Below, in pieces: positions 21,156 to 42,298 of a stretch of DNA of 64,000 bases. The notes under the pieces are model-generated. The model did not search any database and was not told the origin of the DNA. It was given only the letters and a program-made list of their open reading frames with translations. Every line of letters begins with the position of its first letter. Positions within the stretch are counted from its first letter, which is position 1. The stretch is from Escherichia coli. Its GTDB lineage: Bacteria; Pseudomonadota; Gammaproteobacteria; Enterobacterales; Enterobacteriaceae. Made by a program: the position numbers and the translations under genes. Where the stretch lies: the NCBI RefSeq assembly GCF_044647545.1, contig NZ_CP172818.1. One strand, given 5' to 3'.

Positions 21156-22654
21156 CAGAAACGCTCCAGTTCAGGAAAAGGTAAATGACCGTGATGCACA
21201 TGCATGGCACCAAATTCAGCACAGCGGTGTAGCGTGGGAATGTTTTTCCCAGGGTTCAGCAAACCATCGGGGTCAAACGCCGCCTTGACCGCATGGAAGG
21301 TCGTGATTTCATCGCTGTTGAACTGGGCGCACATTTGATTGATTTTTTCTCGCCCGATGCCATGTTCGCCACTGATGCTGCCGCCAACTTCAACGCAGAG
21401 TTCGAGGATCTTCCCGCCCAGCTCTTCCGCGCGGGCAAATTCACCGGGTTCGTTGGCATCGAAAAGGATTAACGGGTGCATGTTGCCATCTCCGGCATGA
21501 AAGACGTTGGCAACACGTAAATCATATTGCTGCGATAAACGGGCAATGCCTTCCAGTACGCCAGGCAGGGCGCGACGCGGGATGGTGCCATCCATGCAGT
21601 AGTAATCCGGGGAGATACGTCCTACCGCCGGGAACGCATTTTTGCGACCGGCCCAGAAACGTACGCGCTCTGCTTCGTCCTGTGCCAGACGGACGTCAGT
21701 CGCGCCCGCTTTCAACAAGATGTCGTTAACCCGCTCGCAGTCTTCCTGTACGTCAGACTCCACGCCGTCCAGCTCGCATAACAAAATCGCTTCGGCGTCG
21801 ACGGGATAACCGGCATGAATAAAATCTTCCGCCGCGCGGATCGACAGGTTATCCATCATCTCCAGCCCGCCGGGGATAATGCCATTGGCGATGATGTCAC
21901 CAACCGCAAGTCCGGCTTTTTCTACCGAGTCAAAGCTGGCTAACAGAACCCGCGCCACGGGCGGCTTCGGCAGCAGTTTTACCGTCACTTCGGTGGTCAC
22001 GCCGAGCATACCTTCCGATCCGGTGAACAGCGCCAGCAGGTCAAAACCAGGTGAATCCAGCGCGTCCGATCCAAGCGTCAGTGCCTCGCCGTCCAGCGTT
22101 TGCACTTCAATTTTCAGCAGGTTATGTACGGTCAGACCATATTTCAGGCAGTGGACGCCGCCGGCATTTTCAGCCACATTGCCGCCAATGGAACAGGCGA
22201 TTTGTGAGGAAGGGTCCGGTGCGTAGTAGAGATTATGCGGTGCAACGGCCTGGGAGATCGCCAGGTTACGCACGCCTGGCTGCACGCGCGCGCGGCGACC
22301 AACGGGGTTAATGTCGAGGATCTCTTTAAAGCGCGCCATCACCAACAACACACCTTTTTCCAGCGGCAGCGCGCCACCAGAAAGCCCGGTGCCTGCACCA
22401 CGGGTCACCACCGGTACACGCAGGCGATGGCAGACAGCCAGAATCGCTGTCACCTGTTCCATTTGCTTAGGCAGAACAACCAGTAATGGACGCGTGCGAT
22501 ACGCGCTCAACCCGTCACACTCGTAAGGAATGATCTCCTCATCGGTATGCAGGATCTCAAGTCCAGGGACATGCTCACGCAGTGCCATCAGTACCGATGT
22601 GCGGTCGACATCGGGTAAAGCGCCATCAAGACGCTCTTCGTACAAGATGCTCAT
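21155..22654 (-). CDS. glcD: Glycolate oxidase subunit GlcD (FAD-linked oxidase), 499 aa
   Basis: ORF track 499 aa beginning MSILYEERLDGALPDVDRT... Confidence 0.95.
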   Translation of the reverse strand: MSILYEERLDGALPDVDRTSVLMALREHVPGLEILHTDEEIIPYECDGLSAYRTRPLLVVLPKQMEQVTAILAVCHRLRVPVVTRGAGTGLSGGALPLEKGVLLVMARFKEILDINPVGRRARVQPGVRNLAISQAVAPHNLYYAPDPSSQIACSIGGNVAENAGGVHCLKYGLTVHNLLKIEVQTLDGEALTLGSDALDSPGFDLLALFTGSEGMLGVTTEVTVKLLPKPPVARVLLASFDSVEKAGLAVGDIIANGIIPGGLEMMDNLSIRAAEDFIHAGYPVDAEAILLCELDGVESDVQEDCERVNDILLKAGATDVRLAQDEAERVRFWAGRKNAFPAVGRISPDYYCMDGTIPRRALPGVLEGIARLSQQYDLRVANVFHAGDGNMHPLILFDANEPGEFARAEELGGKILELCVEVGGSISGEHGIGREKINQMCAQFNSDEITTFHAVKAAFDPDGLLNPGKNIPTLHRCAEFGAMHVHHGHLPFPELERF

Positions 22655-22904
22655 GAGTAGGCTTCGCTTTGTTGTGTTGTGTGGCAGCTGATTTTTGCGC
22701 GCTGCTTCTGTGAACAGTTATTAAGCGGGCTTTTCGTTTTCGTCTATCTCTTTAGCTACCGGTCAGACCATTTTTTTTCCAGCTCTGTGACCTTGTCTTG
22801 GTTAACTCAATGTTAAATTGATGTAACATAATCACTTACGTGATGTGCGTGTTTTGCGAGTTAAGAACAGAAAAATTGGTCCTACCTGTGCACGAGGTCC
22901 GGGA
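22655..22904. promoter_or_regulatory. Divergent glcC / glcDEFGBA promoter-operator region
   Basis: 250-bp intergenic region between divergently transcribed glcD and glcC; established site of GlcC-dependent activation; individual sites not resolved here. Confidence 0.5.
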
Positions 22905-23669
22905 ATGAAAGATGAACGTCGCCCTATTTGCGAAGTGGTTGCAGAGAGTATCGAACGGTTAATTATCGACGGCGTACTGAAGGTCGGTCAGCCGCTTCCC
23001 TCGGAACGTCGACTGTGTGAAAAGCTCGGCTTCTCACGCTCCGCACTGCGTGAAGGGCTGACCGTGCTGCGCGGGCGCGGGATTATTGAAACGGCGCAGG
23101 GTCGCGATTCTCGTGTCGCACGGCTTAATCGGGTGCAGGACACCAGCCCGCTGATCCATCTGTTCAGTACGCAGCCGCGAACGCTGTACGATCTGCTCGA
23201 CGTTCGCGCATTACTGGAGGGCGAATCGGCAAGGCTGGCGGCAACGCTGGGAACGCAGGCTGATTTTGTTGTGATAACCCGCTGTTATGAAAAAATGCTC
23301 GCCGCCAGTGAGAACAACAAAGAGATTTCGCTGATCGAACATGCGCAGTTGGATCACGCTTTCCATCTCGCCATTTGTCAGGCTTCTCACAATCAGGTGC
23401 TGGTGTTTACGCTGCAATCATTGACCGATCTGATGTTTAATTCAGTGTTTGCCAGCGTAAATAATCTCTACCATCGACCACAGCAAAAAAAGCAGATCGA
23501 TCGCCAGCATGCGCGGATCTACAACGCGGTGTTGCAGCGGCTGCCGCACGTCGCCCAGCGCGCAGCACGCGATCATGTGCGGACCGTGAAAAAGAATCTC
23601 CACGATATCGAGCTGGAAGGCCACCATTTGATTCGCTCGGCGGTGCCGCTGGAGATGAACCTGAGTTAG
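22905..23669 (+). CDS. glcC: GntR/FadR-family transcriptional activator of the glc operon, 254 aa
   Basis: ORF track 22845..23669; native start at the Met giving MKDERRPICEVVAESIERL... with N-terminal winged-helix region. Confidence 0.93.
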   Translation: MKDERRPICEVVAESIERLIIDGVLKVGQPLPSERRLCEKLGFSRSALREGLTVLRGRGIIETAQGRDSRVARLNRVQDTSPLIHLFSTQPRTLYDLLDVRALLEGESARLAATLGTQADFVVITRCYEKMLAASENNKEISLIEHAQLDHAFHLAICQASHNQVLVFTLQSLTDLMFNSVFASVNNLYHRPQQKKQIDRQHARIYNAVLQRLPHVAQRAARDHVRTVKKNLHDIELEGHHLIRSAVPLEMNLS

Positions 23670-23675
23670 CTGGTA

Positions 23676-24950
23676 TTAAATCTGCTTTTCATACAATCGG
23701 TAACGCTTGTACGGCTCCGCCCCAATGCGTTCCAGCATGTTATTCATGCCTGTATTGGTTTCGAGGATCCATGACATCTCCAGCGCATCGATCTTCCGGC
23801 GGGCAAACGGATCGCGTAAGGCTTCAATCAATAACAGCGCAATCACCGGGCCGATGCGGCTGAACTGATACTCGTCGCGCACGCCCATCAGCGGTACTCG
23901 CGCAGTTCGCACACCGCTGACTTTCAAACGCCACAGCAATTTTGCCCAGCCGAAGGGAAAGAGCGATCCGTTCAGATCGGCAATCGCCTCGTTGATGTTC
24001 GGCAAGCCGACAATAAACGCGCAGGGTGCAGAATCAATCTCAGCGATATAGATCATATCGTCCGGCACCAGATATTTAAGTTGATCGCCCATGGTCGCGA
24101 ATTCATGTTCGGTAAACGGCACAAATCCCCAGTTGTGCTGCCAGCCAGAGTTGAAAATCTCACGCAGGATCTGCATCTCTTCGGCAAACCGCTGACGATT
24201 GATGCAGCGAATGGTCACCTTTTTGCGCACCTGATCCATCAGTTTTTTTAGCGCCGGAGAGAAAGTGAGATCGGTTCGCTGCATCCACCACGCCAGTAAA
24301 TCAATGCCTTTGTGATAACCCAGTTGTTCAATATGCGCGGCATACCACGGTTTGCCGTGTGGCATCATCGCACAGGGTGGTGTGTCAAAACCTTCAATCA
24401 GTAATCCGCTTTCCTGATTGATATTCAGGCTGAAAGGACCGCTGATCTTACTTGCACCTTGTGACTTCAACCACGCTTCCGCTGCGCCAAACAACGCGGC
24501 AAAAACCTGCGGATCATCAATGGCGTCAATCATGCCGAAATGACCGGTATCTTTGCCGTAACGCTCGCGGTGCAAGGTATCTATTTGCGCGGTAATACGC
24601 CCAACTATCTGCCCCGCTTTTTTTGCCACCCACGCCTGCCAGATGATATGGTCCGTCCCCGGATTTTTCGCAGACAAATGCTCGTTGCGTTCAATGAATA
24701 AAGGGGGTATCCAGTTTGGATCGTCGGGATAAAGTGATGACGGAAAAGCGATAAATGCCTTAAGGTCATTTTTATTAAAGACGTCGCGAAACTGAAGACA
24801 ACCGGAAATTAACTTAAAACACTCCGAACGAATTTTATAATAAAAAACGATCGCGTCATACCGAAACAATACGATTCGTAAGTTTTTTTCCATATCCTTA
24901 TCGCGTCCCTCATTCAATCGTTTTAAGCCAGGATCCCTGGTTAACGGCAA
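23676..24950 (-). CDS. yghO: YghO (GNAT-like acyltransferase fold protein); 5' end uncertain
   Basis: 424-aa ORF convergent with glcC; its start abuts the anomalous block; I recall yghO being a pseudogene interrupted by IS5 in K-12, and no IS5 is present here. Confidence 0.7.
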   Translation of the reverse strand: MPLTRDPGLKRLNEGRDKDMEKNLRIVLFRYDAIVFYYKIRSECFKLISGCLQFRDVFNKNDLKAFIAFPSSLYPDDPNWIPPLFIERNEHLSAKNPGTDHIIWQAWVAKKAGQIVGRITAQIDTLHRERYGKDTGHFGMIDAIDDPQVFAALFGAAEAWLKSQGASKISGPFSLNINQESGLLIEGFDTPPCAMMPHGKPWYAAHIEQLGYHKGIDLLAWWMQRTDLTFSPALKKLMDQVRKKVTIRCINRQRFAEEMQILREIFNSGWQHNWGFVPFTEHEFATMGDQLKYLVPDDMIYIAEIDSAPCAFIVGLPNINEAIADLNGSLFPFGWAKLLWRLKVSGVRTARVPLMGVRDEYQFSRIGPVIALLLIEALRDPFARRKIDALEMSWILETNTGMNNMLERIGAEPYKRYRLYEKQI

Positions 24951-24989
24951 TACGAACGATTCCTCACGTCCATTCGAACGATATCCCTA

Positions 24990-25500
24990 CCTCCATACAC
25001 CTCCCACACCCTTTCCGGCTCATTATCACCCACCGAAGAGGCTAATCACGTCTATAACACGACGGCATTAAATTACCCGCGACCGCATCGCTCCTCTACC
25101 ATGAAGGGACGGTCGGCTTGACCCCCCCACGCACCATAGATTACGCACCAATCACTCCCCAAGCTTAAAGACATAAAAACCGGCACCTCCCCCGCCCATG
25201 AATTTCCACGCCCTGAATGAAAGAAATCCCTGAACTGGATCTTTCTCTGCGCGTCGCGGTATTTCAGAACCCATCTCCAGAACAGACTCTATCAATTTGC
25301 CATGCCCCACATTAACTATGATCATTCAACCCACGCATACAACGAATACATTTTAACCACCCTTTTAACATACCAACCGATTCCTCCACTCCACCGAAAA
25401 TTATACGCCTACCTCCATACACCCCCACACCGTTTCCCGTCATTACACCCACCGAACACCGAACACTCTATAACACACGCATTAAATACCCCCGACCCCT
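24990..25500. repeat. C/A-rich non-coding segment with two imperfect ~100-bp direct repeats (about 24990-25090 and 25408-25500)
   Basis: CTACCTCCATACACC..CCCACACC..TTTCC..TCATTA.CACCCACCGAA...TCTATAACAC..CATTAAAT..ACCC occurs twice at roughly 80 percent identity by eye; no ORF support. Confidence 0.4.
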
Positions 25501-26024
25501 CTCCCCTTTCACCAATAATTCGGCTTTCTCCTGACCCCCCCACCACATAATTACATAATTTACTCCAATTAAAATCATAAAAAATCCGGCATTTCTCCTC
25601 TATGAATCCACTAATAAAAAATCTAATGGATCTCCCCTTACAAACACCCAAACAACCATCAATAATTTATTAAACAAACTCAACACAAAAATTCACTTTT
25701 ATGAACTCTTAACGAATATCCACACCAAACAGTAAACCCCTCAAACACGCCTATCGATTTTCCGTCAAGTAAAACTTTTGAACAGATTGAAAATCCGCAG
25801 TGAAGCATATCCGGCGCGGCGGAATTTAGTGCAGATGCTTCATCACTCCTCTCAACCTTTAACGAAATCCAATCTCAAATCAGTAAACCTCCCCGGTCAA
25901 AACGCCTATCACTTCTCAACTGCGGCAAAGCTGGAAATTATTAAATCCAGCACTGTGAGCGGTGTATGCCTTGGCGGAACAGTTTCGGTAAGCCACCTCA
26001 TCTCCGGTCCGTCTATGACTTACT

Positions 26025-26426
26025 TTGGCGACCAGTTCGCAAGCAATTGCCGCGACGGGCTGGTTAGACACCGGCGACCTCGGTTATCTGCTGGACGGTT
26101 ATCTGTATGTCACCGGACGCATTAAAGATCTGATTATTATTCGTGGCCGTAATATCTGGCCGCAGGATATTGAATATATAGCGGAACAGGAACCGGAAAT
26201 TCATTCTGGCGATGCGATTGCTTTTGTTACCGCCCAGGAAAAAATCATTTTGCAGATCCAGTGTCGGATCAGCGACGAAGAACGTCGCGGGCAGGTTTCC
26301 CACCCCGCACGCGGCCAAAATGAAAATGGAGTTACCCCTGCTAGCGATTTTCGATCTCTCCACACCACACCCTTTTACGGCCCCTCCAACCCCACCCGTG
26401 CGCAAGCGGAAACACGTAAACATTAG
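26025..26426 (+). pseudogene. Fragment of a fatty acyl-AMP ligase / adenylate-forming enzyme (C-terminal subdomain only)
   Basis: ORF translation contains WLDTGDLGYLLDGYLYVTGRIKDLIIIRGRNIWPQDIEYIAEQEPEI, matching the conserved TGDLG...TGRxKDLIIxRGxNxYPQDIE motif of FAAL/acyl-CoA synthetases; the N-terminal ~450 aa of such enzymes is absent. Confidence 0.55.
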
Positions 26427-26558
26427 CGTAGGCTTCTAGTCTCAATGTTCATGAACCCCAATCATTAATCAAACTGACACTGTGACGGTGGCGAGCGGTA
26501 CTAGCTTTAAAGGTATTAATATTATAACCTGCTCGCCCGCGGCTTTCACGTTCGCGCA

Positions 26559-26840
26559 TTGACGCGTACTGCCCGCGCTCACGTCAATGATAATCTCCCC
26601 TCGGTGGGGGGTTGGCTGCAGGATACTCATTCACTTAGCGAGCTGGTTGCCGGAGCCAGCGTAGTGGTCCATTGCGCCGGGCAAGTGCGCGGGACAAGCA
26701 CCACGCTAATCGACCAGTCTAACCTTACCAAGCACCAAAGAGAGCTGCTAGCGCCAACGGTGTCCGTTTTTTTCTACCCTTTTCTCTTTCTATCTTCAGT
26801 TCCCCCGTACCCAAACGCGCTATACTGCTCTGAGCAATGA
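26559..26840 (+). pseudogene. Possible NAD(P)-binding (SDR/epimerase-like) fragment
   Basis: Short ORF with ...LVAGASVVVHCAGQVRG... resembling a Rossmann-fold motif; weak. Confidence 0.2.
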
Positions 26841-27764
26841 CAATCAGTAATGGCGGACCAAATGACGCTGGTGGTGGACCACCTTACAGTCGGCGTTTTT
26901 CCCGCGAAAAAAGTGTTTAAACCCCGCGTTGACGGGATGAAACCCCTCTTTCTGTGACTACTTGGCGCCCTACAGACACAGCTTTCTTTGCCGGATATCA
27001 CCCTTTTTTTTCAGCAGGTGACCAATTAAGCCGGAGAAGCGCCTCAATGATACAGACGCAAAAATACAAGCAAACCTATGAATTATGCGATGGCGTCGCC
27101 GGCGGCTATGACTGGCAACGCGTACAGCAACTTGCCGCCGACGCCCGTTGCGGTTCCCTGGATGGTGTTCATTGCCGGTACTCACCGGCCTTGCGGATAT
27201 CAGTACCGCGTTGAGTCGCCTGGCAGGTAAAGAACCTATGCTCTACCCGTCGAAAATTCGTGAATTAACCCACGCTACCTTTCGTCAACTTCTAACCCTG
27301 TTGTTGAAGATAGTTAGCCTGGTCCCCGGATTACCCAGCAAGACGTATTACTTAACTTGTTTTTTGGTCTGTCACGTTTATATGTTTAATAATGTAATAA
27401 TAATAAATTGTAAAATTTCCTTTTTACAGGATTTTGTCGATATAGTGTAGTTATTCCGAAAGAGGGGGATCTCGTAAGCGCTATAGCCATTGCGTCGATG
27501 AACGTGCTGGGACTCTTTCTAATGGTTGGAGCCCGTAACGATGTTTCCATACCGATTCATATTTTGATGGCTATTAATACCCCTGCGGATGTCATAACCA
27601 CTGTGCTATCATGGGTGGCGCTTCTATCATGGGGCTATAAGGTAGATGTGCGCGACTAGCTAGAGGGCGACTGCGCTTTCGAGCCACCGCATTTTAGCCA
27701 TTACGGGTTACTCACCTGTTTATGATGTTTATTTCCGCCACCGAAGGCCGGATCGGCAATAAAA

Positions 27765-28259
27765 ATGATATCTGGCCGGGACCGATTTTTCGGTTTTGTA
27801 ACCTTTAATCATGATGCCATAGGCGAAGGTCAGGCCGCGTTAGCGGCCCAAGGTACCGGCACCACCGGTTCTCGTATGGCAAACGGCAGTTATGCGCCGC
27901 ACCTGGCGTTAGAGAAAGAGATTGCCGAGTTTTTCAATCGCCCTACCGCTATCGTTTTTTCAACCGGTTATACCGCTAATTTAGGCGTCATCAGCGCACT
28001 TGCCGACCATAACGCCGTGGTGTTACTGGATGCCGACAGCCACGCCAGTATTTATGACGCCTGTTCTCTCGGTGGCGCGGAAATTATTCGTTTCCGCCAT
28101 AACGATGCTAAAGATCTGGAACGGCGGATGGTTCGCCCCGGTGAACGGGCGAAAGAGGCGATTATCATCGTTGAGGGTATCTACAGCATGCTCGGTGACG
28201 TTGCGCCGTTAGCGGAAATTGTTGATAAACATCTGCGTGTGGGTGATTTTTGTTTCTAG
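27765..28259 (+). pseudogene. Fragment of an alpha-oxoamine synthase (BioF/KBL/serine palmitoyltransferase family, PLP-dependent)
   Basis: ORF translation GSRMANGSYAPHLALEKEIAEFFNRPTAIVFSTGYTANLGVISALADHNAVVLLDADSHASIYDACSLGGAEIIRFRHNDAKDLERRM...IIIVEGIYSMLGDVAPLAEIV matches the conserved N-terminal/middle part of AOS enzymes; the region with the catalytic lysine is missing. Confidence 0.6.
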
Positions 28260-28423
28260 TAAGGCCCTTTGGTTTGCGTTGTAGGCGGAAAGGGGGGGCG
28301 AACTGCTTAAACTTGTCGGGGTTGAGGTTATTGTGATTTTTATCGTCGGCACCTTCAGTAAGTCTCTCCCCTAGTTTCGCTTTTTTTGTCTGGTTTCGAA
28401 AGAGGTAAAAGTGGTGCGATGCC

Positions 28424-28468
28424 ACCCCCCCCCATATTTTTTTCCCCCCTCTCTTTCCCCCCCCTCGA
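28424..28468. repeat. Homopolymer-rich low-complexity tract (poly-C, poly-T)
   Basis: GCCACCCCCCCCCATATTTTTTTTCCCCCCTCTCTTTCCCCCCCC; atypical for E. coli. Confidence 0.6.
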
Positions 28469-28918
28469 CGCGCCCGTGCCGTTAACAATGAGCGCCATAC
28501 CACCAGAGCCGGGGCAAAAGCTGATGGAGAAGGATAATCACCTGTATCACTGTGTCGATATACAAGGATTGGATTTTAGGTTACATATAAGTATTAGAGT
28601 GCTGGTAATAATCATAATCAAATAGGACGGGGTACGTATCCGGCTCTAGCGTGTGTTTCTTTCGTTGATCTTTTATGTGCATCTTATCCTCCCCCCTGCC
28701 GGGCATCACGCCGTCGCGCTGTACCCTAAAGCGTGCACACTGCTGAGAGTAGACAAATCGATGCCATCATTCAGGCATTTGCTACTCTGAAGCAGTAATG
28801 TGAGCCCGCCGTGGTGTTGCGCCACGGCGGGTTTAATGTGTTGTGTGATATCACTTACACCAGGCTCAACGCCACCAGCACAAACGCTATCGGTAAACCG
28901 AGCGCGGTAACAGGTGCG

Positions 28919-29997
28919 TCACGCAAATAGCAATCCCAGATTGACCATGATTTGATAGCTGATCCAGGTGAGTAAGCCAACGATGACACCTACAGCGAGA
29001 CGGCTACCCATCCCTCGGGAGCGCGGGGCGCTAAAAATAAACTGGACAGCCAGGAAAAATAACCCCAGGGGTAGGAATGGTTTCCCCAGTTTTTCCAACA
29101 TGGCAAGGCGTTATCCGTGGTGGGTTGCCCCGTTTCCTGGCAATTATGGGAGTTATGGATTAAGTGGAGGGACGGAAAATATATTCCCCCGTCGTTATAA
29201 CTTTTCAATTTTTATACGTGTAAAGCGCTTGCCCGGGGCAATTTTATGATATTTTCCGAGTGTTTTTGCGCCTCTCCCCTATTTTTTCTTTCACTATTAC
29301 ACCATGCAGGATCCACGTTTTGTCGTCTTCAATGGTGGCACTGCGTGCATAAATGTAGGATTCGAGCGAAAGATTACCACGAGATTGTAATATCTCTCCG
29401 CCCACAGGGGCTCCCCGTGCTTGTTGCGCGTTTACCGCGACAAATTTTCTACCCCGCCCCTCCCACAGCGCATTTTGGGGGTAGTGACCTCCTCCCCCCC
29501 ACGGCGCTGGCAGTCGATTTGATTTGCAGCGCCTGTTGCTGCAATGGCGACGCCACCCACTCATCTATCGCGCCTAACGAAACAGTCCACAATATCCCGG
29601 CAACCAGCGCCACCAGTGCAATACGGAAGATAGAAAACCCAGTGCTGCGAATGGCGGTAAGCTCACTGTTTTTCGATAACTGCCCCAGGCCAACAATCCC
29701 TCCCAATAATGCGATAAACGGCGAAAGTTCGACCAGTGTACGCGGTAAGGTCATCAGCACCACCAGCACCGCCTGAGTCCAGCGATAACCGCCCGGGCTG
29801 ACATCATCCAGTTCGTTAATCAGGTTGAAGGTGGTAAAAAGCGGCAGCAATAGCCCTGCGGCGGCGGCAAAACCGAGAAAGAGATGACGGATTAAATAGC
29901 GACTGAAAACGTTCTTCGGGAAAATTTCTGGAGCAAAGAGAAGTCGCGTGCGACCAGCATCAGCAGGCCCATTAGCATGAGTCCGGGTACTAACCAC
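28919..29997 (-). pseudogene. LptF/LptG-family (YjgP/YjgQ) permease homolog, fragmented (N-terminal and C-terminal pieces in different frames)
   Basis: ORF 29449..29997 has FSRYLIRHLFLGF...LPRTLVELSPFIALLGGIVGLGQLSKNSELTAIRSTGFS, an LptG-like N-terminus; ORF 28919..29101 resembles the C-terminal TM segments; frames are broken. Confidence 0.45.
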
Positions 29998-30981
29998 AAA
30001 CCAGGAAGGATGGGGACGCGTTTGCGCCCGTTAGCGCACTCGGCAGACGTCGCCGCCATAAAAAATGGCAATAAACAGCAACGTCAGTGGCAATAACGTT
30101 GTAAAATCGCCCTTGCCGCGGTTTTACCCGACTTAATGAAATGGCCAGCAGCGCCATCAACAATGCGGTCAGGCCACGGCTTTGTCGCCATTGCAGTTCG
30201 GCATGATCGGCAGGAAAGGCGGAGCGCGCCAGCTCCGTGACCGATTTTGCTTTGCGTTTGACGTTAGGGCTTTGATCCAGCGGATTCAGATGTAATTGCA
30301 GATTACGGTAGATCTGTTCGTTGTCGTCACGCCCCTGATGATCGAGAAGATAGGCGGTGCCATTCAACAAAATGATCGTTGGTTAGTTGAGTGGTCAACC
30401 ACACCAATCGAACGGACGCGGGAAAAACGTGTGCGATCGGTAGGAGAAGGATAAATCAGTGCGTGAGTCAGTCGAGCATTTATTTTATTAACCGACCGTC
30501 AAAGGAACATTCGTTCGTTAGTTTTCGTTTGTATTTTATTTCTTCCCCAACAAGTGGAGATCCACCAGCTACGGCTACGGCTGTTCCAGCCGATAAAAAT
30601 TCTGAGAATCCCACGGCCGACGATCCAACGACGGAAGGGGGATAAAAATACTTATTGGTATTATCAGAAAATGAAGGGCGGCTTTCAACCGTCGCCCAGG
30701 GCCCCCCCCGAGAGAGAGCTGGAGGTTATTAGCGGGTAGATATCCGTCCGACCGAGAGTCCAACCGACAGATACATACCGACAGGCAAGTACATCCCCAT
30801 CGCGAGCAGTACGCTGTATGTAACGATCGCTATCCCGAACATCAAGAGCTAAGGTCCCATTTGCCGCTTCGGTCAGATAACGCTGTGCGGAGTAGCTGGC
30901 GAAAATAAAGATCAGAAAACCGACGATAATCAGCACCAGACGGCGCGTACCACGCATGATGTAGTGTTCAACCAGCTTCAT
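29990..30981 (-). pseudogene. Second LptF/LptG-family permease homolog, fragmented (tandem with the downstream copy)
   Basis: ORF 30685..30981 starts MKLVEHYIMRGTRRLVLIIVGFLIFIF (LptF-like N-terminus); ORF 29990..30370 has AELQWRQSRGLTALLMALLAISLSRVKPRQGRF matching the conserved NPRQGR region; frames are broken. Confidence 0.45.
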
Positions 30982-31011
30982 CTCACTAACACCCTCAATC
31001 CTTTGAATTTT

Positions 31012-31573
31012 TTATTCATTGATCAGTTTCTGCGCCAGCGCAATGACATGATCTACCTCTTCCGGCGTCAGGCTGCCGTCCTTTGCCCACTGAATTTGCC
31101 CGTCTTTATTCAGCACCAGAATGGTTGAACTCTGCTCCGGCAACCGCCAGGCAACGCGTCCCAGTCCATTGCCGTCAATAACGAATTGCGCCCACGGATA
31201 GCGGCGTTTATTTTTTTCGATTTTGCCAACGACAAAATAGCCAGTACCAAAGATGGCATCATCGGTGTTCACAATGGTGGTGGGCTGAAAACGATCCTGC
31301 GGAAAGTTTGCCGCTTCAACCGCTTTAATTAACAGTGGCTTTTTTTTTTTCGCGGCCACTCACCCGGCGCTATATTCGGTATAACGCGGTTTTCCCCCGC
31401 GATGTGTGCTGTTCCCCACTTTGTGGTGTGTATTGTCGTCGCTCTATTCAGAAGGATCGCCCCGTTCCTGGGTATTAAACGGGGGTAACCGTTTTGCCAG
31501 TGACAAAATTGTGTGCCTGCACACCCTGGGCTAAGAGCATGATAATCAGCGCAATAATCAAACGAGATGACAT
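31012..31573 (-). pseudogene. YtfJ-family periplasmic protein homolog, frameshifted near a poly-T/poly-A tract
   Basis: C-terminal ORF 31012..31359 has ...TTIVNTDDAIFGTGYFV...YPWAQFVIDGNGL...LVLNKDGQIQWAKDGSLTPEEV matching E. coli YtfJ as I recall it; a signal-peptide-like N-terminus MSSRLIIALIIMLLAQGVQAHNF begins at 31573 in another frame; total span fits a ~185-aa protein. Confidence 0.55.
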
Positions 31574-32675
31574 CATTGCTCCGGTTATAGCGGAAAACGC
31601 GAAATCAGCAGCTCTAAGCGCTGGCGAATATCGCTATCCAGCGCCACCGGTGCATTATACGACCGGGCGGTTTTCCTAATAATCCCCACCATTGTGGCCG
31701 TGTTTTCCCCCATCAGGCCATTAATGGCGGCGAGGAAGCGGGAAATCTTTTATTGCTTTTGTTTATCAAGCGATCTTAAGGTGTCGTAATAAGAAACCTG
31801 CTGACTGATGATTTTTCGCACATCATGAAATTCCCTGCCGGTTAGTCGCGGTTTGGCAATTATCTTTTCATGTGAATTATTTTTTTTCGATAAAAATAAA
31901 AAAACTTCCGATTTTTGAATTGGTAAGGCTTAATGAAAATTCCACCAAGGACAAGACCGAAAAGTTTAATAAAACCCTAAACAATTTCCCTTAAACCAAC
32001 CCATTATTTTCTTTACCTTTAGGAAAACCTCCTGGAAACGGCCCCAAAAAAACGTCCTTTTTCCGGTAAAAAAATCCCCTCTTATTTGATAGTAAATACA
32101 GCCAATGCACAAAATTCAGGCGCTTTCAGCTCTCTTTTATGATTTTATTGTTCATCCGCAGTAAGATTCACCTCATTGCCTTTTTTCTGTTTTCATAGTA
32201 AACGCACCAACTCATTGAGATTAATGAGACTGAGTTAGAAGTGTAGCCAGTACTTGTAATTAATAATATGATTGGGTAAATATAATGTAATGCTAGACGC
32301 CACACTAAACTGACCAGCGCCGCCATCATATTATTCTACTCAACCGAAACAAAGATACCTCCCCTCGCGCGAAAAATGTAATATTTTCTTTATGATTACT
32401 ATTCCGCTCCGTTATCAAGATAAAGAAAGGAATGGCGCTGAAAAAATGCCGTCAAGGTTGGAGAGAACGAGAGCACCAGATATAGACAACCGCCATCGAA
32501 AAAAGCAAATCCCACCCCGACACGCAAACAACTACAAACAGATGAACAGCAATACGAAACTATACCGATGATGTCATGTTTCGCCACGATTGAGGCGATG
32601 GTTTCCCACGAAAAACCCTTTTTCCCCATCATACAATACTCCTGTGGGAAAAGCGCGCTGTTCCCCGCATCGAAA

Positions 32676-33791
32676 TCAAAGACTCCGGGAACCACATCGA
32701 AATACAATTGCGCCCAGCATCACCTGAATCAGGTCATACGCTTCGAGATACTTAACGCCAAACACCAGCGCAATAAGCGGCTTGCCGACGATCAACACCG
32801 CGAGCGCCACCAGAATACCGATTCCGCCCGCCAGTAAACCTGACTTCACGCCTAACAACCACGGTCTGGTGGTGCGCGGATCTAAACGCATCACCTCTGG
32901 GTAAAAACTTTTGCCCAGTAAACCCGCTGGCGTTCCGGCGGCGTCGAAGAATGTCATGGCGATTTTAAATAACCCGGCGGCAGCGGGTCCTAACACGATC
33001 CCCACCAGCACTGTGCTGCACGAGTTACGCGCCGACCAGATGGAGTGGGCAATGTTGGTTGACCAGACAAAACTCCACGCGCCTTTAATGTGTCGGGCAG
33101 ACTCAAACAGATTCAATTTGAAGGCGTTATGGATATTTCTGCGGCGTAATTCGCGCGCGGCAAACCACCAGTACATGGTGCCGCCAACCAGATTCGACAC
33201 GTACCAGGCAATAACAAAACCCGCAAAACCAAAGTCAAAATACCAGGCTACGACGCTCCCCGCTGCGCGCAGAAAAGGTTTCGTCGCTTGCTGTACAGCA
33301 ATTAGATCGAAGCGATCTACCGCACGCAGAATGCCGGTCGGCGTGGAGGAAGCCATTGAAGGAATGAGCGTGCAATACAGCGCTGCCAGCCAAAAGCTTT
33401 GGTCATCCAGACCTAATGAATGGGAAAGAAAAGGGAGTAAGGCAATGCCGCCGACAATCGCCACCGCGCCGCTGACGATATCCAGCGAGAAGGAAAATGA
33501 GACGACATTGCGAAATTGCTGCGGATTATTGTTGGTCAAGGCTGGCGTTCCGTACTGCACCACCAACTGCCATGTCTGAAACTTAATAAAATCGCTGATC
33601 GACTTGGCGTACGATTGCACAATCACCAGTACGCCAAACATGGCGGGCGTCATCCCTTTACCGGCACACGAGAGCGCCAACAGACCCAGTAAAGCGCTCA
33701 CGACATTACTGGAGCCTAACCAGGCGCTATTGCGAATAATGGTGCGAAACGCGCCATCTGCAAACCAATGTTTGATGTTAAAACCCGCCAA
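32676..33791 (-). CDS. yghQ: Polysaccharide-transporter/flippase-like inner membrane protein YghQ; 3' end possibly disturbed
   Basis: 371-aa polytopic membrane ORF; its C-terminus borders the anomalous block, and a further out-of-frame ORF follows at 32399..32707. Confidence 0.85.
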   Translation of the reverse strand: MAGFNIKHWFADGAFRTIIRNSAWLGSSNVVSALLGLLALSCAGKGMTPAMFGVLVIVQSYAKSISDFIKFQTWQLVVQYGTPALTNNNPQQFRNVVSFSFSLDIVSGAVAIVGGIALLPFLSHSLGLDDQSFWLAALYCTLIPSMASSTPTGILRAVDRFDLIAVQQATKPFLRAAGSVVAWYFDFGFAGFVIAWYVSNLVGGTMYWWFAARELRRRNIHNAFKLNLFESARHIKGAWSFVWSTNIAHSIWSARNSCSTVLVGIVLGPAAAGLFKIAMTFFDAAGTPAGLLGKSFYPEVMRLDPRTTRPWLLGVKSGLLAGGIGILVALAVLIVGKPLIALVFGVKYLEAYDLIQVMLGAIVFRCGSRSL

Positions 33792-33836
33792 TTCAGCCTG
33801 ACCTTATCGTTGATAGTAAAAAGTATCCCGCCAGCC

Positions 33837-34595
33837 TTAAGTTAAACTTCGGCGGTCAGAAACGATGGCAACCAGAGAAACCGCCTTCTGTGCCTGTTCC
33901 AGCACTTCGCTGTAAGGCGCTCTGGAATCAATCTCAAGAATTTTTGTGCCGTTATAGCCAATCTTCGACATGACGCCGATTTTGTCCTGCAATTCGGCAT
34001 AGTCATGGTCAGGCTTGCGGGAAATGGCAGTATCAATATCAATCCCCAAACGAATGATTAATTCAGGACGGTATTGCGCCATTTGTTGGTATAAACGCCG
34101 TTCGCGCTGCGCCAGAAACATGCTGATTTTCCCGGTCGCACGTTCGACGCCGATCCCCGGTCCGTCATAATAAAAGCCCGAAATTTCAGCCTGCGGGAAG
34201 CGATCGCTGACCACCAGAACGCCACTTTGCGCCAGTCGCTGAACCTTGCGTAGATTCGCCATTCTTCGCAGCGAGAAGCAGTACATAATCACCGCCGCCC
34301 ATAGCGCTGGAGATTTGGTTTTCATGCTTTGGGTTTTCGATGATTTGGCCGCCAGTCGCCGTTCGAGCCAGACGCCAACCAACGGCAATCGTTTGATTTT
34401 GTCGCCGTCTTCGCCCGAGAGCAGCCCCAGATAGCGGCGCTCGGTTTGCCAGTGTTGTTGCAGCGATTTCACCAGATCGGTGGTCAGTGTGGATTTACCG
34501 GTACCATCACACCCGACCACCGCAATCAGCCCCGGAATGTAGTTGGGCTGCGGCGCGGTTGTACTATTAACAGTTTGTGTTTGTAGTGCGTCCAT
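33837..34595 (-). CDS. yghR: P-loop NTPase family protein YghR, 252 aa
   Basis: Walker A motif GCDGTGKST near the N-terminus; paralogous to yghS and yghT. Confidence 0.9.
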   Translation of the reverse strand: MDALQTQTVNSTTAPQPNYIPGLIAVVGCDGTGKSTLTTDLVKSLQQHWQTERRYLGLLSGEDGDKIKRLPLVGVWLERRLAAKSSKTQSMKTKSPALWAAVIMYCFSLRRMANLRKVQRLAQSGVLVVSDRFPQAEISGFYYDGPGIGVERATGKISMFLAQRERRLYQQMAQYRPELIIRLGIDIDTAISRKPDHDYAELQDKIGVMSKIGYNGTKILEIDSRAPYSEVLEQAQKAVSLVAIVSDRRSLT

Positions 34596-34626
34596 TCGTT
34601 AAATCATCCCCTATCCATTTTGGTGA

Positions 34627-35340
34627 TCAGGAAAGCGCAGCGTGAATTGCGCGTAGTGACGCTTGCAGAATTTCATCGGCTGGTTGCCGACCATCCAGTT
34701 CAAGGATCTTTGCGCCATTGAATGTCAGTTGCGGCGTAACGGCGATTTTTTCCTGTAACGCTGCCAGTTGGTGGTCAGGTTTACGCGCAAACGCGGTTTG
34801 TTCATCAATGCCAAGACGAATCAACAATACGGGCAAATAAGACGCCATCCATTGGTACAGCTTCAGCTCGCGCTGCCTTAACATTTTTATCCAACCGTTA
34901 CCGCCCGTGGTTTTTGCCAATTGCGGGCCATCAAAGCGAAAACCCGGCACTTCAACCTGCGGGTAGCGGTCGGTGATGAGCAGGTAGCCTTGCTGGCTTT
35001 TACACAACATTTTGCGAAACTTGTACGCCCGCCAGCAGGAAAGCAGATAGATAACCAGCGCAGTCATATTGCCAGGCGGTGTGGAGGGCTTTTCGTGCAC
35101 ATGTGCCGCTTTACTTCGCAGATAACGCCCAAAAGGTGCGCCAATAACAGGGAGCTGTGAAATCCATTCGCCAATTCGCCCGGACGATTGCCCGAGATAA
35201 ATGTGTTCTGTTGGCATTGTTGCTGCCAGTTCATTTACCAGGCTTGCCGTGAGGGTCGATTTACCTGAACCATCACATCCTACAATGGCAATAACACGCA
35301 CTGGCGTGGAATTAATTATTGACATATTACGTTGATTCAC
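34627..35340 (-). CDS. yghS: P-loop NTPase family protein YghS, 237 aa
   Basis: Walker A motif GCDGSGKST; paralog of YghR. Confidence 0.9.
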   Translation of the reverse strand: MNQRNMSIINSTPVRVIAIVGCDGSGKSTLTASLVNELAATMPTEHIYLGQSSGRIGEWISQLPVIGAPFGRYLRSKAAHVHEKPSTPPGNMTALVIYLLSCWRAYKFRKMLCKSQQGYLLITDRYPQVEVPGFRFDGPQLAKTTGGNGWIKMLRQRELKLYQWMASYLPVLLIRLGIDEQTAFARKPDHQLAALQEKIAVTPQLTFNGAKILELDGRQPADEILQASLRAIHAALS

Positions 35341-35514
35341 GAAAAACCCGGCAGCAAATAATGTATTGAATATTACGTGGTCCGTGCTCAGAATATCCGT
35401 TCAACCTTATTGTGACAATGGTTAATTGTGACATTGACCTGAATTACGCTTTCATCAAAAACATATTAACCAAATAAATATTTTGGATGGATATTTAAAT
35501 TTAAGGATATATTC

Positions 35515-36207
35515 ATGCAGTCAATAATACCTCCATTAATTGCCGTTATTGGTAGCGATGGTTCAGGCAAGTCAACGGTGTGTGAACATCTTATTACCGT
35601 TGTCGAAAAATATGGTGCTGCCGAAAGAGTTCATTTAGGAAAACAGGCCGGAAATGTCGGTCGTGCAGTGACAAAATTACCGTTGATGGGAAAATCCTTA
35701 CATAAAACAATTGAACGAAATCAGGTGAAAACAGCAAAAAAATTGCCTGGCCCTGTTCCGGCGCTGGTAATTACAGCGTTTGTCGCCCGTCGCTTACTGC
35801 GCTTTCGTCATATGCTTGCCTGTCGTCGTCGCGGGTTAATTGTTCTAACCGACCGTTATCCTCAGGACCAAATTCCTGGTGCTTACGATGGTACGGTGTT
35901 CCCACCTAACGTTGAAGGTGGTCGTTTTGTCTCATGGCTGGCAAGCCAGGAACGTAAAGCGTTTCACTGGATGGCGAGCCATAAGCCCGATCTGGTCATC
36001 AAACTCAATGTCGATCTGGACGTGGCCTGCGCGCGTAAGCCTGACCACAAAAGAGAATCGCTGGAAAGGAAGATAGCCATAACGCCACAGTTAACCTTTG
36101 GTGGTGCACAACTGGTTGATATCGATGCTAATCAGCCACTGGAAAAGGTGCTGGTTGATGCAGAAAAAGCGATTACGGATTTTATGACCGCGCGTGGTTA
36201 TCACTAG
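35515..36207 (+). CDS. yghT: P-loop NTPase family protein YghT, 230 aa
   Basis: Walker A motif GSDGSGKST; third paralog, divergently oriented. Confidence 0.9.
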
Positions 36208-36219
36208 TCAAAAATGGAA

Positions 36220-36248
36220 ATGCCCGATCGCCAGGACCGGGCATTTTC
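36220..36248. terminator. Bidirectional terminator between convergent yghT and pitB
   Basis: ATGCCCG...CGGGCAT inverted repeat followed by TTTT. Confidence 0.55.
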
Positions 36249-36255
36249 AGGAAGG

Positions 36256-37755
36256 TTAAATCAACTGCAATGCTATCCAGTACAACCCACCAGAAAGAAA
36301 AATCGCCGCCGGTAAAGTAAACACCCACGCCATCAGGATGCTGGTTACCGTTTTACGCTGTAACCCACCGCCGTCCACCACCATCGTCCCTGCTACTGCA
36401 GACGAGAGTACGTGTGTTGTGGAGACGGGCATCCCAATATAACTGGCAAGGCCGATAGACACTGCCGCCGTCATTTGTGCCGCCATGCCTTGCGCATACG
36501 TCATGCCGCGCTTACCAATCTTCTCACCGATGGTCATCGCTACACGACGCCAGCCAATCATGGTGCCGATGCCGAGCGCCAGTGCTACCGCCATGATGAT
36601 CCACACCGGTGCGTACTCAATGGTGCTTAACATATCGCTGCGCAGTTTTTTCAGCAGGTTCTGGTCTTCTTTACTGACGCCTGGCAGTTTCGCCAGCTTC
36701 GCGGAGGTATCAGAGATGCACAGCATAATGCGGCGCAGCTGGCTGCGCTGACTCACGCTTAACGGCTCGTAACTTTCCATATTGCCTGGCAGCATCGTTT
36801 TAACGCGCGCAATCGCATCAAAGGTATTTGCCGGATGACAGTGAAACTCTGTTACTTGCGTGCCATCAGTCGATGTCGCAGGCAATGGAGGTTCCATCGT
36901 AATCAACTTCTGCGGCAGTTCAGGATGCTGTTGCAGGTAGTGTTCGAAGTTGGTGACGGCATCGCGGGTACGGGTAATTTCATAGCCGGACGCGTTCATA
37001 TTGACGACGAAACCAGCAGGGGCAATCCCCACCAGTACCAGCATCACCAGGCCGATCCCTTTCTGCCCGTCGTTCGCGCCGTGCGAAAACGCCACGCCCG
37101 CAGCGGAAACAATCAGCGCAATACGCGTCCAGAATGGCGGCTTACGTTTGCCTTTTTTCTTTTTGCGATCTTCCGGAATGCGGTGAATACGGTCACGCTT
37201 TTTCGTCCCGCTCCAGAAACGGCGCAGCAGGAAAATCAGACCACCCGCAATGACCAGGCCGACGATAGGGGAAACAATCAGCGAGGAGAAAATTTTGGTC
37301 ACTTCACGCAGGTTTAACGCATCCATCACCGATGAGCCGGTTAACAGCGCGTTGGTTAAACCGATGCCGATAATCGCACCAATCAAGGTGTGCGAACTGG
37401 AGGCCGGTAAACCAAAGAACCACGTTCCCAGGTTCCAGATAATCGCCGCCAGCAGCATAGAAAAGACCATCGCCAGGCCGTGAGTTGACCCCATATTCAA
37501 CAACAAATCGGTTGGCAACATATGGACAATGGCATAGGCAACGCTAAGTCCGCCTAGCAATACGCCAAAAAAATTAAAAAATGCCGCCATCACCACAGCA
37601 AGTTGTGGTTGCATGGCACGAGTATAAATAACGGTTGCCACCGCATTCGCCGTGTCATGAAAACCATTGATTGCTTCGTAGAACAACACAAATGCCAGAG
37701 CAAGTAATAACAAAAGCCCTGTGTATATATCAAGGCCAACAAATAAATTTAGCAT
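36256..37755 (-). CDS. pitB: Low-affinity inorganic phosphate transporter PitB, 499 aa
   Basis: ORF track 499 aa polytopic membrane protein, PiT family. Confidence 0.95.
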
Positions 37756-37996
37756 ATATTAGATTACGCCATTTTGAATTTACGAACGGACGCATTATCA
37801 GTGACTTTAACGGCATGGGCAAAGTGAAATATCATTTTTTAACGATAAAAAGCGTGTTATTTCTTGTGTATCAGACAATAAGCATTCATTCAAAACCTTT
37901 AGAAATAATCAAAACACATGTATTCTGCTGGTTAATATATTCACATATAAAATGAATAAATATTGGAATATATAAATATTGAATGTTTTGATTAAT

Positions 37997-38031
37997 CCCC
38001 GTACTGATTATTCTTCATAATCAGTACGGGG
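37997..38031 (-). terminator. Putative terminator downstream of gss
   Basis: Inverted repeat CCCCGTACTGATTA...TAATCAGTACGGGG immediately 3' of the gss stop. Confidence 0.5.
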
Positions 38032-38046
38032 TTGCTACAACATGTA

Positions 38047-39906: not shown

Positions 39907-40110
39907 CACTTTACCTTTAACAATACAACCTAAGCAGTTGGCGTAATTGTTGTGCTCTGATTACCTGCTCAGCGACATTAACCGGACAGAGGTCAGACTA
40001 ATCATACACCTCATCGCAGCGGCTGGCGCAAAGGGTTAAAAAATTCACATTCTGTACAGCAAGTGACCTGCTACACTGCTTCAACACTACCACTCAGAAG
40101 GCAACTCACT

Positions 40111-40977: not shown

Positions 40978-41093
40978 GGCAACATTGGCACTTATCCTAT
41001 TACCATAAACATTTTAACTAACCCCAAAACCACATTTCATTAACTTTTTCCCTCCCCAATTTTTTTTTTTTCCTAAAAAACACCCCCCTTCCC

Positions 41094-41150
<57 letters not shown>

Positions 41151-42286: not shown

Positions 42287-42298
42287 TGTTAACTCCGG

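What the first reader, a model, noticed from the sequence alone, without database searches (positions are those of the whole stretch)
28919..30981. Tandem LptF/LptG-like permease remnants outside the canonical lptFG locus
Two consecutive minus-strand gene remnants have LptF-like and LptG-like N-termini and the conserved PRQGR region, but are divergent from the essential lptF/lptG genes, which lie elsewhere on the E. coli chromosome. A second YjgP/YjgQ pair next to a lipid-type biosynthetic core would suggest export of a distinct amphiphile, but both copies are fragmented here.
Basis: partly seen in the sequence, partly recalled or inferred. Interest (0 to 1): 0.5.

Follow-up and report, generated by a model that had tools for sequence, protein, structure and literature searches.

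The report
Garbled copy of known lptF2/lptG2
The two gene fragments are the E. coli sphingolipid-locus copies of the LPS-exporter permeases (lptF2/lptG2), a pair that is already described. Their broken state here comes from non-biological corruption of the sequence text, not from real gene decay.

Summary
Window 28833-30981 (minus strand) carries fragments that match LptG and then LptF models and Pfam PF03739. They are only 28-29% identical to the essential K-12 LptF/LptG, which lie elsewhere.

They are not a new find. They are lptG2/lptF2 of the E. coli sphingolipid locus (yghO, aasR, epi, acpR, spt, lptG2, lptF2, ytfJ, a hypothetical gene, yghQ, yghRST). The pair is intact in 4131 of 5426 complete E. 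coli genomes at 95-100% identity. It is syntenic in Serratia and Erwinia, and it has been published (PMC9386255, PMC11324152, bioRxiv 10.64898/2026.04.12.717747).

The fragmentation is not natural pseudogenisation:
- Flanks are 100% identical to strain ECONIH1, but 24779-32703 is a patchwork of perfect stretches (up to 403-500 nt) and 55-75%-identity patches.
- Substitutions there are random: ts:tv 367:729, equal counts at the three codon positions, and 31 frameshifting indels in the two genes.
- No E. coli genome shares the variants.
- The corrupted segments coincide with the DNA absent from K-12. Elsewhere they degenerate into poly-A or G-free text.

Verdict: known biology in a corrupted copy. 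Low interest, except as a data-quality flag.

The parts
23676..24818 (-). yghO, the N-acyltransferase of the locus ('aca' in PMC9386255). Intact except for the first ~40 nt at its 5' end, where the corruption starts at 24779.
   Evidence: 100% identical to ECONIH1 up to window 24778. Annotation. Role from PMC9386255.
25087..26467 (+). aasR (fatty acyl-AMP ligase / acyl-ACP synthetase), corrupted. The 5' half is unalignable G-poor text.
26464..27356 (+). epi (NAD-dependent epimerase/dehydratase-family reductase), corrupted in patches.
27382..27629 (+). acpR (specialised acyl carrier protein), corrupted.
27629..28798 (+). spt (serine palmitoyltransferase), corrupted in patches. The largest patch is 28226-28753.
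   Evidence: NCBIfam NF047599 scores 599 bits on the intact allele.
28833..29916 (-). lptG2 (LptG paralogue of the sphingolipid locus), corrupted. 101 substitutions, 19 frameshifting indels, start codon ATG changed to AAG. Perfect stretches at 29508-29910 and 28922-29015.
   Evidence: The intact allele scores 307 bits on TIGR04408 (cutoff 240).
29913..30981 (-). lptF2 (LptF paralogue), corrupted. 122 substitutions and 20 indels, 12 of them frameshifting. Perfect stretches at 30103-30358 and 30838-30981. The KPRQGR motif is retained, followed by a 1-nt insertion at 30102.
   Evidence: The intact allele scores 319 bits on TIGR04407 (cutoff 230).
31012..31573 (-). YtfJ-family protein gene with a predicted signal peptide. 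Partly corrupted at 31338-31475.
31585..32390 (-). Conserved 274-aa hypothetical protein gene of the locus, corrupted.
   Evidence: Conserved in Serratia and Erwinia.
32390..33791 (-). yghQ (MOP/Wzx-like flippase-family protein). The 3' end, 32390-32703, is corrupted; the rest is 100% identical to ECONIH1.
33837..36207 (.). yghR (33837-34595, minus), yghS (34627-35340, minus) and yghT (35515-36207, plus). Three paralogous P-loop kinase-like genes of the conserved block, all intact.
24779..32703 (.). Full extent of the corrupted segment. It equals the DNA between the K-12 IS5 deletion junctions in yghO and yghQ.
   Evidence: First and last differences from ECONIH1. DNA shared with K-12 ends at 24790 and resumes at 32723.

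Best explanation
**What it is.** The two fragments are lptG2 and lptF2, the second LptF/LptG-family permease pair that E. coli carries inside its sphingolipid (dihydroceramide) locus between glcC/yghO and yghRST-pitB.

**How the intact system most likely works.**
- LptF2 and LptG2 form the transmembrane half of an ABC transporter.
- The locus has no ATPase of its own, so the pair probably borrows the housekeeping LptB. The transporter would then extract the sphingolipid made by YghO, AasR, Epi, AcpR and Spt from the inner membrane for delivery to the outer membrane.
- The MOP-family protein YghQ is a candidate flippase.

**Shown and inferred.**
- Shown here: family membership, paralogy, locus synteny, absence of an ABC ATPase gene in the locus, and conservation of the coupling-helix glutamates.
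- Shown in Caulobacter by others: the F2-G2 complex, LptB binding, and essentiality when sphingolipid is made.
- Inferred for E. coli: the substrate and the route.

**State of the copy in this window.** The copy cannot encode anything. That is because the sequence text of 24779-32703 has been corrupted by a non-biological process. Patches carry about 30-45% random substitutions plus small indels, and they alternate with stretches identical to the natural allele. The underlying allele is the ECONIH1 type. The origin of the corruption is not resolved. It could be unpolished or poor-quality sequence in an assembly, or in-silico generated or perturbed text.
For: **Identity of the genes**
- The window is collinear with ECONIH1 glcB...hybD.
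- PGAP annotates intact lptG and lptF next to spt.
- NCBIfam scores are above the cutoffs: 319 against 230 for LptF, 307 against 240 for LptG.
- Identity to K-12 LptF and LptG is 29% and 28%. The closest solved structures are LptB2FG complexes.
- Canonical lptFG is in 5425 of 5426 genomes; the second pair is in 4131 of 5426 at 95-100% identity.
- The whole block is intact and syntenic in Serratia proteamaculans and Erwinia persicina. 356-aa orthologues occur across Enterobacterales.
- LptF2 E85 aligns with LptF E84, and LptG2 E85 aligns with LptG E88. These are the LptB-contacting glutamates (PMC5082905).
- Literature.

**Corruption**
- The flanks are 100% identical to ECONIH1, while 24779-32703 splits into 21 divergent clusters at 45-86% identity separated by perfect stretches.
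- ts:tv is 367:729. Substitutions are spread about 1:1:1 over codon positions in every gene.
- Synonymous to non-synonymous codon changes are 17:62 and 21:73. Thirty-one indels are frameshifting.
- A 403-nt perfect run inside a 13.6%-divergent interval has p of about 3e-26 under uniform divergence.
- Natural orthologues used as controls show a 177:84:384 codon-position bias and intact ORFs.
- All 4157 E. coli genomes with the region match at only 80-90%; none is better. Natural alleles differ from each other by 0-5%.
- The corrupted segments coincide with the DNA absent from K-12. Outside the finding they degenerate into poly-A, G-free or self-repeating text.
- A natural-looking SNP pattern (ts:tv 125:51) is seen in the same window at 1-7100.
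Against: - I could not identify the source record or the process that made the noise.
- The exact coincidence of the noise with non-K-12 DNA is unexplained (note).
- The window's strain is not in the complete-genome collection. Its first 5.3 kb are at best 98.7% identical to any genome, so an unsampled lineage cannot be formally excluded.
- No experiment shows that E. coli LptF2G2 transports a sphingolipid, or that E. coli makes one in vivo. The functional evidence is from Caulobacter and from in-vitro or heterologous assays of the BL21 enzymes.
- Orthology to Caulobacter CCNA_01214/01213 was not tested by sequence here.
Confidence: 0.85

Rival explanations
1. The genes are genuine pseudogenes. 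This strain inactivated its sphingolipid locus long ago, and the genes have decayed by ordinary neutral mutation.
For: Many frameshifts and stops in every gene of the island. Natural loss of the locus does occur: K-12 deleted it with IS5, Shigella boydii has a truncated LptF2, and strain PSS-04 has an IS insertion.
Against: - Neutral decay is spread evenly and takes time. Here perfect runs of 250-500 nt identical to a sister strain alternate with patches at 55-75% identity (p of about 3e-26), while the flanks are 100% identical.
- ts:tv is 0.5, against 2.45 for real SNPs in the same window.
- Real inactivated alleles remain 98-100% identical to the intact allele.
- No other genome shares any of these variants.
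Confidence: 0.03
2. The noisy patches are real DNA from a very divergent foreign allele of the locus (another genus), recombined in mosaic fashion into the E. coli allele.
For: Patch identity of 55-75% is similar to the E. coli versus Serratia or Erwinia distance of 66.5%. Mosaic alleles do occur in E. coli.
Against: - Foreign functional alleles keep the reading frame, keep the length (356 and 359 aa everywhere) and show third-position bias (177:84:384).
- The window patches show 76:63:83, 31 frameshifting indels and 12 stops in lptF2.
- The same kind of patch also hits intergenic DNA, an IS3 and unrelated hypothetical genes, and degenerates into poly-A.
Confidence: 0.02
3. The fragments are a rearranged or chimeric copy of the native essential lptF/lptG.
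For: PGAP gives both pairs the same names.
Against: Only 28-29% protein identity to K-12 LptF/LptG. The canonical pair is present separately in 5425 of 5426 genomes. The second pair has its own conserved position and orthologues.
Confidence: 0.005
4. A real, localised hypermutation process acting on accessory (non-core) DNA produced the patches in vivo.
For: The noise is confined to the three segments absent from K-12, with sharp borders.
Against: - No known mechanism gives 30-45% substitutions of all 12 types together with indels. Diversity-generating retroelements change only adenines, and deaminases change only C or G.
- Poly-A runs of 20-40 nt and text with 2% G are not products of mutagenesis of the ECONIH1 sequence.
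- 'Absent from K-12' is a property of a laboratory reference, not something a cell can sense.
Confidence: 0.01

Closest known systems
LptF2/LptG2 of bacterial sphingolipid loci: Caulobacter crescentus CCNA_01214/CCNA_01213 = CC_1156/CC_1155 (Olea-Ozuna et al. 2024, PMC11324152; Uchendu, Isom & Klein 2026, bioRxiv 10.64898/2026.04.12.717747)
   Same: - A second LptF/LptG pair encoded inside the spt/acpR/aasR/epi/N-acyltransferase locus.
- No LptB gene in the locus.
- The coupling-helix glutamates are kept.
- The preprint's Fig. 2B draws the E. coli UTI89 locus with homologous genes coloured alike, and says lptF2/lptG2 occur in many alpha- and gammaproteobacterial sphingolipid loci.
   Different: - E. 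coli has no LptC2, which the preprint says is restricted to Caulobacter. Its conserved block instead carries YtfJ, a 274-aa protein, YghQ and YghRST.
- No functional data exist for the E. coli pair.
- The copy in this window is corrupted and non-coding.
Canonical LPS exporter permeases LptF/LptG (YjgP/YjgQ; E. coli b4261/b4262; PDB 6MHU, 6MIT, 5X5Y)
   Same: Same Pfam family (PF03739) and the same length, about 356-366 aa. Alignment is full-length to LptG and covers residues 75-331 of LptF. The conserved coupling-helix Glu is present, and the genes are adjacent and overlapping in F-G order.
   Different: Only 28-29% identical. Located at the glc-hyb region, not next to pepA. Accessory (76% of genomes) rather than universal. 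The neighbours make a sphingolipid, not LPS.
E. coli B / BL21(DE3) dihydroceramide gene cluster ECD_02850-ECD_02854 (Padilla-Gomez et al. 2022, PMC9386255)
   Same: Same locus and the same genes directly upstream of the pair: yghO/aca, aasR, epi, acpR and spt. AasR, AcpR and Spt were shown to be biochemically active.
   Different: That paper does not mention the adjacent permease genes: the terms 'LptF' and 'permease' occur nowhere in its text.

Membership tests
LptF/LptG permease family (Pfam PF03739; NCBIfam TIGR04407/TIGR04408) | Significant match to the family profile | tested here: met
   Window fragments hit PF03739 with E = 2.9e-29 and 1.1e-06. They hit TIGR04407/04408 with E from 2e-35 to 6e-05, collinear with the models.
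LptF/LptG permease family (Pfam PF03739; NCBIfam TIGR04407/TIGR04408) | Whole-protein score above the curated equivalog cutoff (230 for LptF, 240 for LptG) | tested here: not met
   Window fragments score 22-122 bits. The intact ECONIH1 allele of the same genes does meet the cutoffs, at 319 and 307 bits.
LptF/LptG permease family (Pfam PF03739; NCBIfam TIGR04407/TIGR04408) | Uninterrupted ORF of about 355-366 aa | tested here: not met
   In the window, lptG2 has 19 frameshifting indels and a lost start codon. lptF2 has 12 frameshifting indels and 12 stops in frame 1. The ORFs are intact at 359 and 356 aa in ECONIH1, Serratia and Erwinia.
LptF/LptG permease family (Pfam PF03739; NCBIfam TIGR04407/TIGR04408) | Conserved coupling-helix glutamate that contacts LptB (LptF E84, LptG E88; PMC5082905) | tested here: met
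   In the intact allele, LptF2 E85 aligns with E84 and LptG2 E85 aligns with E88. In the window, the LptG2 codon (29662-29664) lies in a perfect stretch and is kept. The LptF2 codon (30727-30729) lies in a noisy patch and is lost.
Canonical essential LPS exporter LptFG (b4261/b4262 orthologues) | Orthology (high identity, pepA-lptF-lptG position) to the essential pair | tested here: not met
   28-29% identity. Different locus. The canonical pair is present separately in 5425 of 5426 genomes.
Sphingolipid-locus LptF2/LptG2 | Encoded within or adjacent to the spt-acpR-aasR-epi-N-acyltransferase gene set | tested here: met
   spt ends 35 nt from lptG2 in ECONIH1. The order is yghO, aasR, epi, acpR, spt, lptG2, lptF2. 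The same block is found in Serratia and Erwinia.
Sphingolipid-locus LptF2/LptG2 | No dedicated LptB-type ABC ATPase in the locus | tested here: met
   No ABC ATPase appears among the 27 annotated features from glcB to hybD, nor in the Serratia or Erwinia blocks. YghR matches dTMP-kinase models only weakly.
Sphingolipid-locus LptF2/LptG2 | Closer in sequence to Caulobacter LptF2/LptG2 than to canonical LptF/LptG | not tested
   The Caulobacter sequences were not retrieved. The only basis is the preprint's Fig. 2B legend and its discussion.
Sphingolipid-locus LptF2/LptG2 | Forms an F2-G2 complex, binds LptB, and is essential when sphingolipid is made | not testable with these tools
   Shown only for C. 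crescentus.

The most novel reading that the evidence does not exclude
The patches are real. On this reading the strain carries a sphingolipid locus, an IS3 and another accessory segment that were scrambled in vivo by an unknown mutagenic process aimed at accessory DNA. That would mean a new mechanism of targeted gene destruction.
Probability: 0.01. Interest if true: 0.85.

Novelty: already known. Interest (0 to 1): 0.1.

Why it matters
**Biology.** Nothing new is added. A second LptFG pair dedicated to sphingolipid export has been named since 2024 and tested functionally in 2026, and the E. coli locus is drawn in that work.

**Practical value.**
- About 9.9 kb of this window (24779-32703, 40978-42031, 61005-62019) is not trustworthy sequence. 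Any 'pseudogene', 'remnant' or 'novel ORF' finding in those intervals should be discounted.
- The intact E. coli locus remains an open experimental target. Nobody has shown what lipid it makes in vivo. Nor is it known what the conserved YtfJ, 274-aa, YghQ and YghRST genes contribute, although they co-travel with lptF2G2 across Enterobacterales.

Tried and rejected
- **Native lptFG chimera.** Rejected: 28-29% identity.
- **Natural decay.** Rejected on patch structure, ts:tv of 0.5 and flat codon-position counts. The in-window control of real SNPs gives 2.45.
- **Divergent foreign allele.** Rejected by comparison with the real Serratia and Erwinia orthologues.
- **A natural genome carrying the same variants.** None found among 5426 complete E. 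coli genomes; all matches are at 80-90%.
- **The noisy sequence in public gene calls.** An exact look-up of the 98-aa LptF2 N-terminal ORF found nothing on record. This is weak evidence, because one look-up depends on the gene caller's start choice.
- **Identifying the source strain.** ECONIH1 is identical over most of the window, but it carries a pheV capsule island and a full gsp operon that the window lacks. Window 1-5300 is at best 98.7% identical to any complete genome, so the strain is unidentified.
- **The 274-aa neighbour as an LptC-like protein.** It has no NCBIfam hit, and no signal peptide is evident to my reading of the translation. I did not pursue it.
- **Scans not run.** I ran no further search on finding Caulobacter orthologues, since the literature already covers that point.
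Full report
**1. What is at the coordinates**

ORF listing shows only short ORFs between 28.8 and 31.0 kb on the minus strand. They translate to pieces of an LptG-like and then an LptF-like protein.
- Against NCBIfam the pieces are collinear with the models. 30685-30981 matches LptF positions 2-46. 29990-30370 matches LptF 206-300 and contains KPRQGR. 29449-29997 matches LptG 2-135, 29244-29564 matches LptG 143-211, and 28919-29101 matches LptG 269-325.
- Pfam PF03739 (LptF_LptG) is hit at E = 2.9e-29 and 1.1e-06.

The gene borders, taken from alignment to an intact allele, are lptG2 28833-29916 and lptF2 29913-30981.

**2. Where the window comes from**

The window is E. coli chromosome from the mltC-speC region through glc, yghO to yghT, pitB, gss and hyb to ygiQ.
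- It is 100% identical to strain ECONIH1 (NZ_CP009859.1) over 16474-24778. It is essentially identical over 6790-16782, 32704-40977, 42032-61004 and 62019-64000.
- In ECONIH1 the interval between yghO and yghR is annotated as fatty acyl-AMP ligase, NAD-dependent epimerase/dehydratase, acyl carrier protein, spt, lptG, lptF, YtfJ-family protein, hypothetical protein and 'lipopolysaccharide biosynthesis protein' (YghQ). All of these are intact.

**3. What the intact pair is**

- The ECONIH1 proteins (359 and 356 aa) score 307 bits on TIGR04408 LptG (cutoff 240) and 319 bits on TIGR04407 LptF (cutoff 230).
- Their best solved relatives are the LptB2FG structures.
- They are only 28% and 29% identical to K-12 LptG and LptF. 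Those genes lie next to pepA at 4.486 Mb.
- The canonical pair is in 5425 of 5426 complete E. coli genomes. The second pair is in 4131 of 5426, at 95-100% nucleotide identity in all but two. K-12 lacks it because an IS5-associated deletion removed everything between yghO and a truncated yghQ.
- Orthologues of exactly 356 aa occur in Citrobacter, Hafnia, Shimwellia, Sodalis, Serratia, Erwinia, Raoultella and others at 64-80% identity.
- In Serratia proteamaculans and Erwinia persicina the whole block is conserved and intact: AMP-ligase, epimerase, ACP and aminotransferase; three P-loop genes; a Polysacc_synt protein; a ~280-aa protein; YtfJ; LptF; LptG.

**4. Comparison with the literature**

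- The five biosynthetic genes are the E. coli B/BL21 dihydroceramide cluster: yghO/aca ECD_02850, aasR ECD_02851, epi ECD_02852, acpR ECD_02853 and spt ECD_02854. AasR, AcpR and Spt have been shown to be active (PMC9386255).
- In Caulobacter the equivalent locus encodes 'second versions' LptC2, LptF2 and LptG2, proposed to move sphingolipids to the outer membrane (PMC11324152).
- A 2026 preprint shows that the Caulobacter genes could not be deleted, that F2 and G2 co-purify, and that both bind the single LptB. It draws the E. coli UTI89 locus with homologous genes in its Fig. 2B, and it states that lptF2/lptG2 are common in alpha- and gammaproteobacterial sphingolipid loci.

**5. Mechanism**

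Shown here:
- The two proteins belong to the LptF/LptG family.
- The locus has no ABC ATPase gene.
- The glutamates that couple LptF E84 and LptG E88 to LptB (PMC5082905) are conserved as LptF2 E85 and LptG2 E85.

Inferred by analogy with Caulobacter: an LptB2-F2-G2 ABC transporter extracts the locus's sphingolipid from the inner membrane.

Speculative: YghQ acts as the flippase, and YtfJ, the 274-aa protein and YghRST act as accessory or modifying factors.

**6. Why the fragmentation is not biological**

A global alignment of 24000-34500 to ECONIH1 shows the first difference at 24779 and the last at 32703. Between them, 21 divergent clusters at 45-86% identity, with many 1-4-nt indels, alternate with perfectly identical stretches. 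Examples of perfect stretches are 29508-29910, 30103-30358 and 30838-31337.

| Measure | Window copy | Control |
|---|---|---|
| ts:tv, whole corrupted segment | 367:729, the 1:2 expected of random base replacement | 125:51 for real SNPs between window 1-7100 and strain BS-01 |
| Substitutions by codon position, lptF2+lptG2 | 76:63:83 | 177:84:384 in the real Serratia orthologue |
| ts:tv, lptF2+lptG2 | 76:146 | 319:326 (Serratia) |
| Nucleotide identity to ECONIH1 | 86.4% | 66.5% (Serratia) |
| Reading frames | 31 frameshifting indels, 12 stops in lptF2 | both ORFs intact, same total length |
| Longest identical run | 403 nt | 13 nt (Serratia) |

- Substitutions fall equally on codon positions 1, 2 and 3 in every gene of the island.
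- Synonymous to non-synonymous codon changes are 17:62 in lptG2 and 21:73 in lptF2.
- A 403-nt perfect run has p of about 3e-26 if the 13.6% divergence were spread evenly.
- All 4157 E. coli genomes that have the region match the window at only 80-90%. Natural alleles differ among themselves by 0-5%.
- Naturally inactivated copies stay 98-100% identical to the intact allele. Examples are the Shigella boydii truncation and an ISKpn26 insertion.

**7. The corruption extends beyond the finding and has a strange rule**

- The same kind of noise occurs at 40978-42031, where ECONIH1 has an IS3, and at 61005-62019, where ECONIH1 has two hypothetical genes.
- All three corrupted segments coincide, within 0-20 nt, with the DNA that K-12 MG1655 lacks. 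K-12-shared DNA is 16008-24790, 32723-40979, 42031-61007 and 62019-64000. Yet the clean parts carry the ECONIH1 allele, not the K-12 allele; they are 96-98.6% identical to K-12.
- Some of the corrupted text is plainly not E. coli DNA. 24779-25916 has 11.6% G, a GC skew down to -0.73 and a degenerate self-repeat. 40978-41150 is 49% C and 2% G. 61307-62019 is 58% A with poly-A runs of 20-40 nt.

I cannot tell whether this is unpolished single-read sequence in an assembly built against a K-12 scaffold, or sequence generated or perturbed in silico. Either way it is technical. An exact look-up of one noisy ORF product found no public gene call.

**8. Verdict**

- Observation: confirmed.
- Interpretation: partly supported. 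The family, the paralogy and the export role are right. 'Remnants' is wrong as biology.
- The thing itself is already known (lptF2/lptG2 of the E. coli sphingolipid locus), and the copy in this window is a corrupted rendering of the ordinary ECONIH1-type allele.
- Interest is low. The useful output is a warning that about 9.9 kb of this window should not be mined for pseudogenes or novel ORFs.

Noticed in passing
window 61005-62019: Low-complexity A-rich text: 58% A over 61307-62019, with poly-A runs of 20-40 nt. It stands where ECONIH1 has two hypothetical-protein genes (L003 27165-28621). Not natural E. coli sequence.
   Followed up: partly
window 40978-42031: An IS3-family element sits between yghU and hybG in ECONIH1. 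In the window it is shortened and noisy. 40978-41150 is 49% C and 2% G, and 41508-42031 has 160 differences in 524 nt.
   Followed up: partly
window 24779-25916: The yghO 5' end, the intergenic region and the aasR 5' half are replaced by 1138 nt of G-poor text (11.6% G, GC skew down to -0.73). It contains a degenerate self-repeat: 24950-25203 matches 25370-25607 at 73%. ECONIH1 has 1561 nt here.
   Followed up: yes
window 24779-32703, 40978-42031, 61005-62019 versus K-12 (L006): All three corrupted segments coincide within 0-20 nt with the DNA absent from K-12 MG1655. The clean DNA nevertheless carries the ECONIH1 allele, not the K-12 allele. No explanation found.
   Followed up: partly
window ~5284-6791: K-12-type deletion from within gspL to the end of gspD (junction at ~6790), and no pheV-linked capsule island. 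ECONIH1 has both. Window 1-5300 is at best 98.7% identical to any of 5426 complete genomes, with a natural SNP spectrum. The source strain is therefore not ECONIH1 and was not identified.
   Followed up: partly
window 31012-36207; L008 3438-8930; L009 3634-8980: YtfJ, a 274-282-aa protein with no NCBIfam family hit (274-aa E. coli form), YghQ (MOP flippase-like) and three paralogous P-loop kinase-like proteins (YghR/S/T) travel with lptF2/lptG2 and spt as one block in E. coli, Serratia and Erwinia. Their roles in the sphingolipid pathway are undescribed in the papers read.
   Followed up: partly
protein hits P0002-P0006, P0011-P0013, P0015-P0020: Public gene calls include fusions of LptF2 with YtfJ (PF09695), PitB (PF01384) or the AMP-ligase (PF00501). 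Natural truncated forms of 238-331 aa also occur in E. coli and Shigella. This shows that real structural variants of this gene exist, and that they keep 91-100% identity over the aligned part.
   Followed up: no
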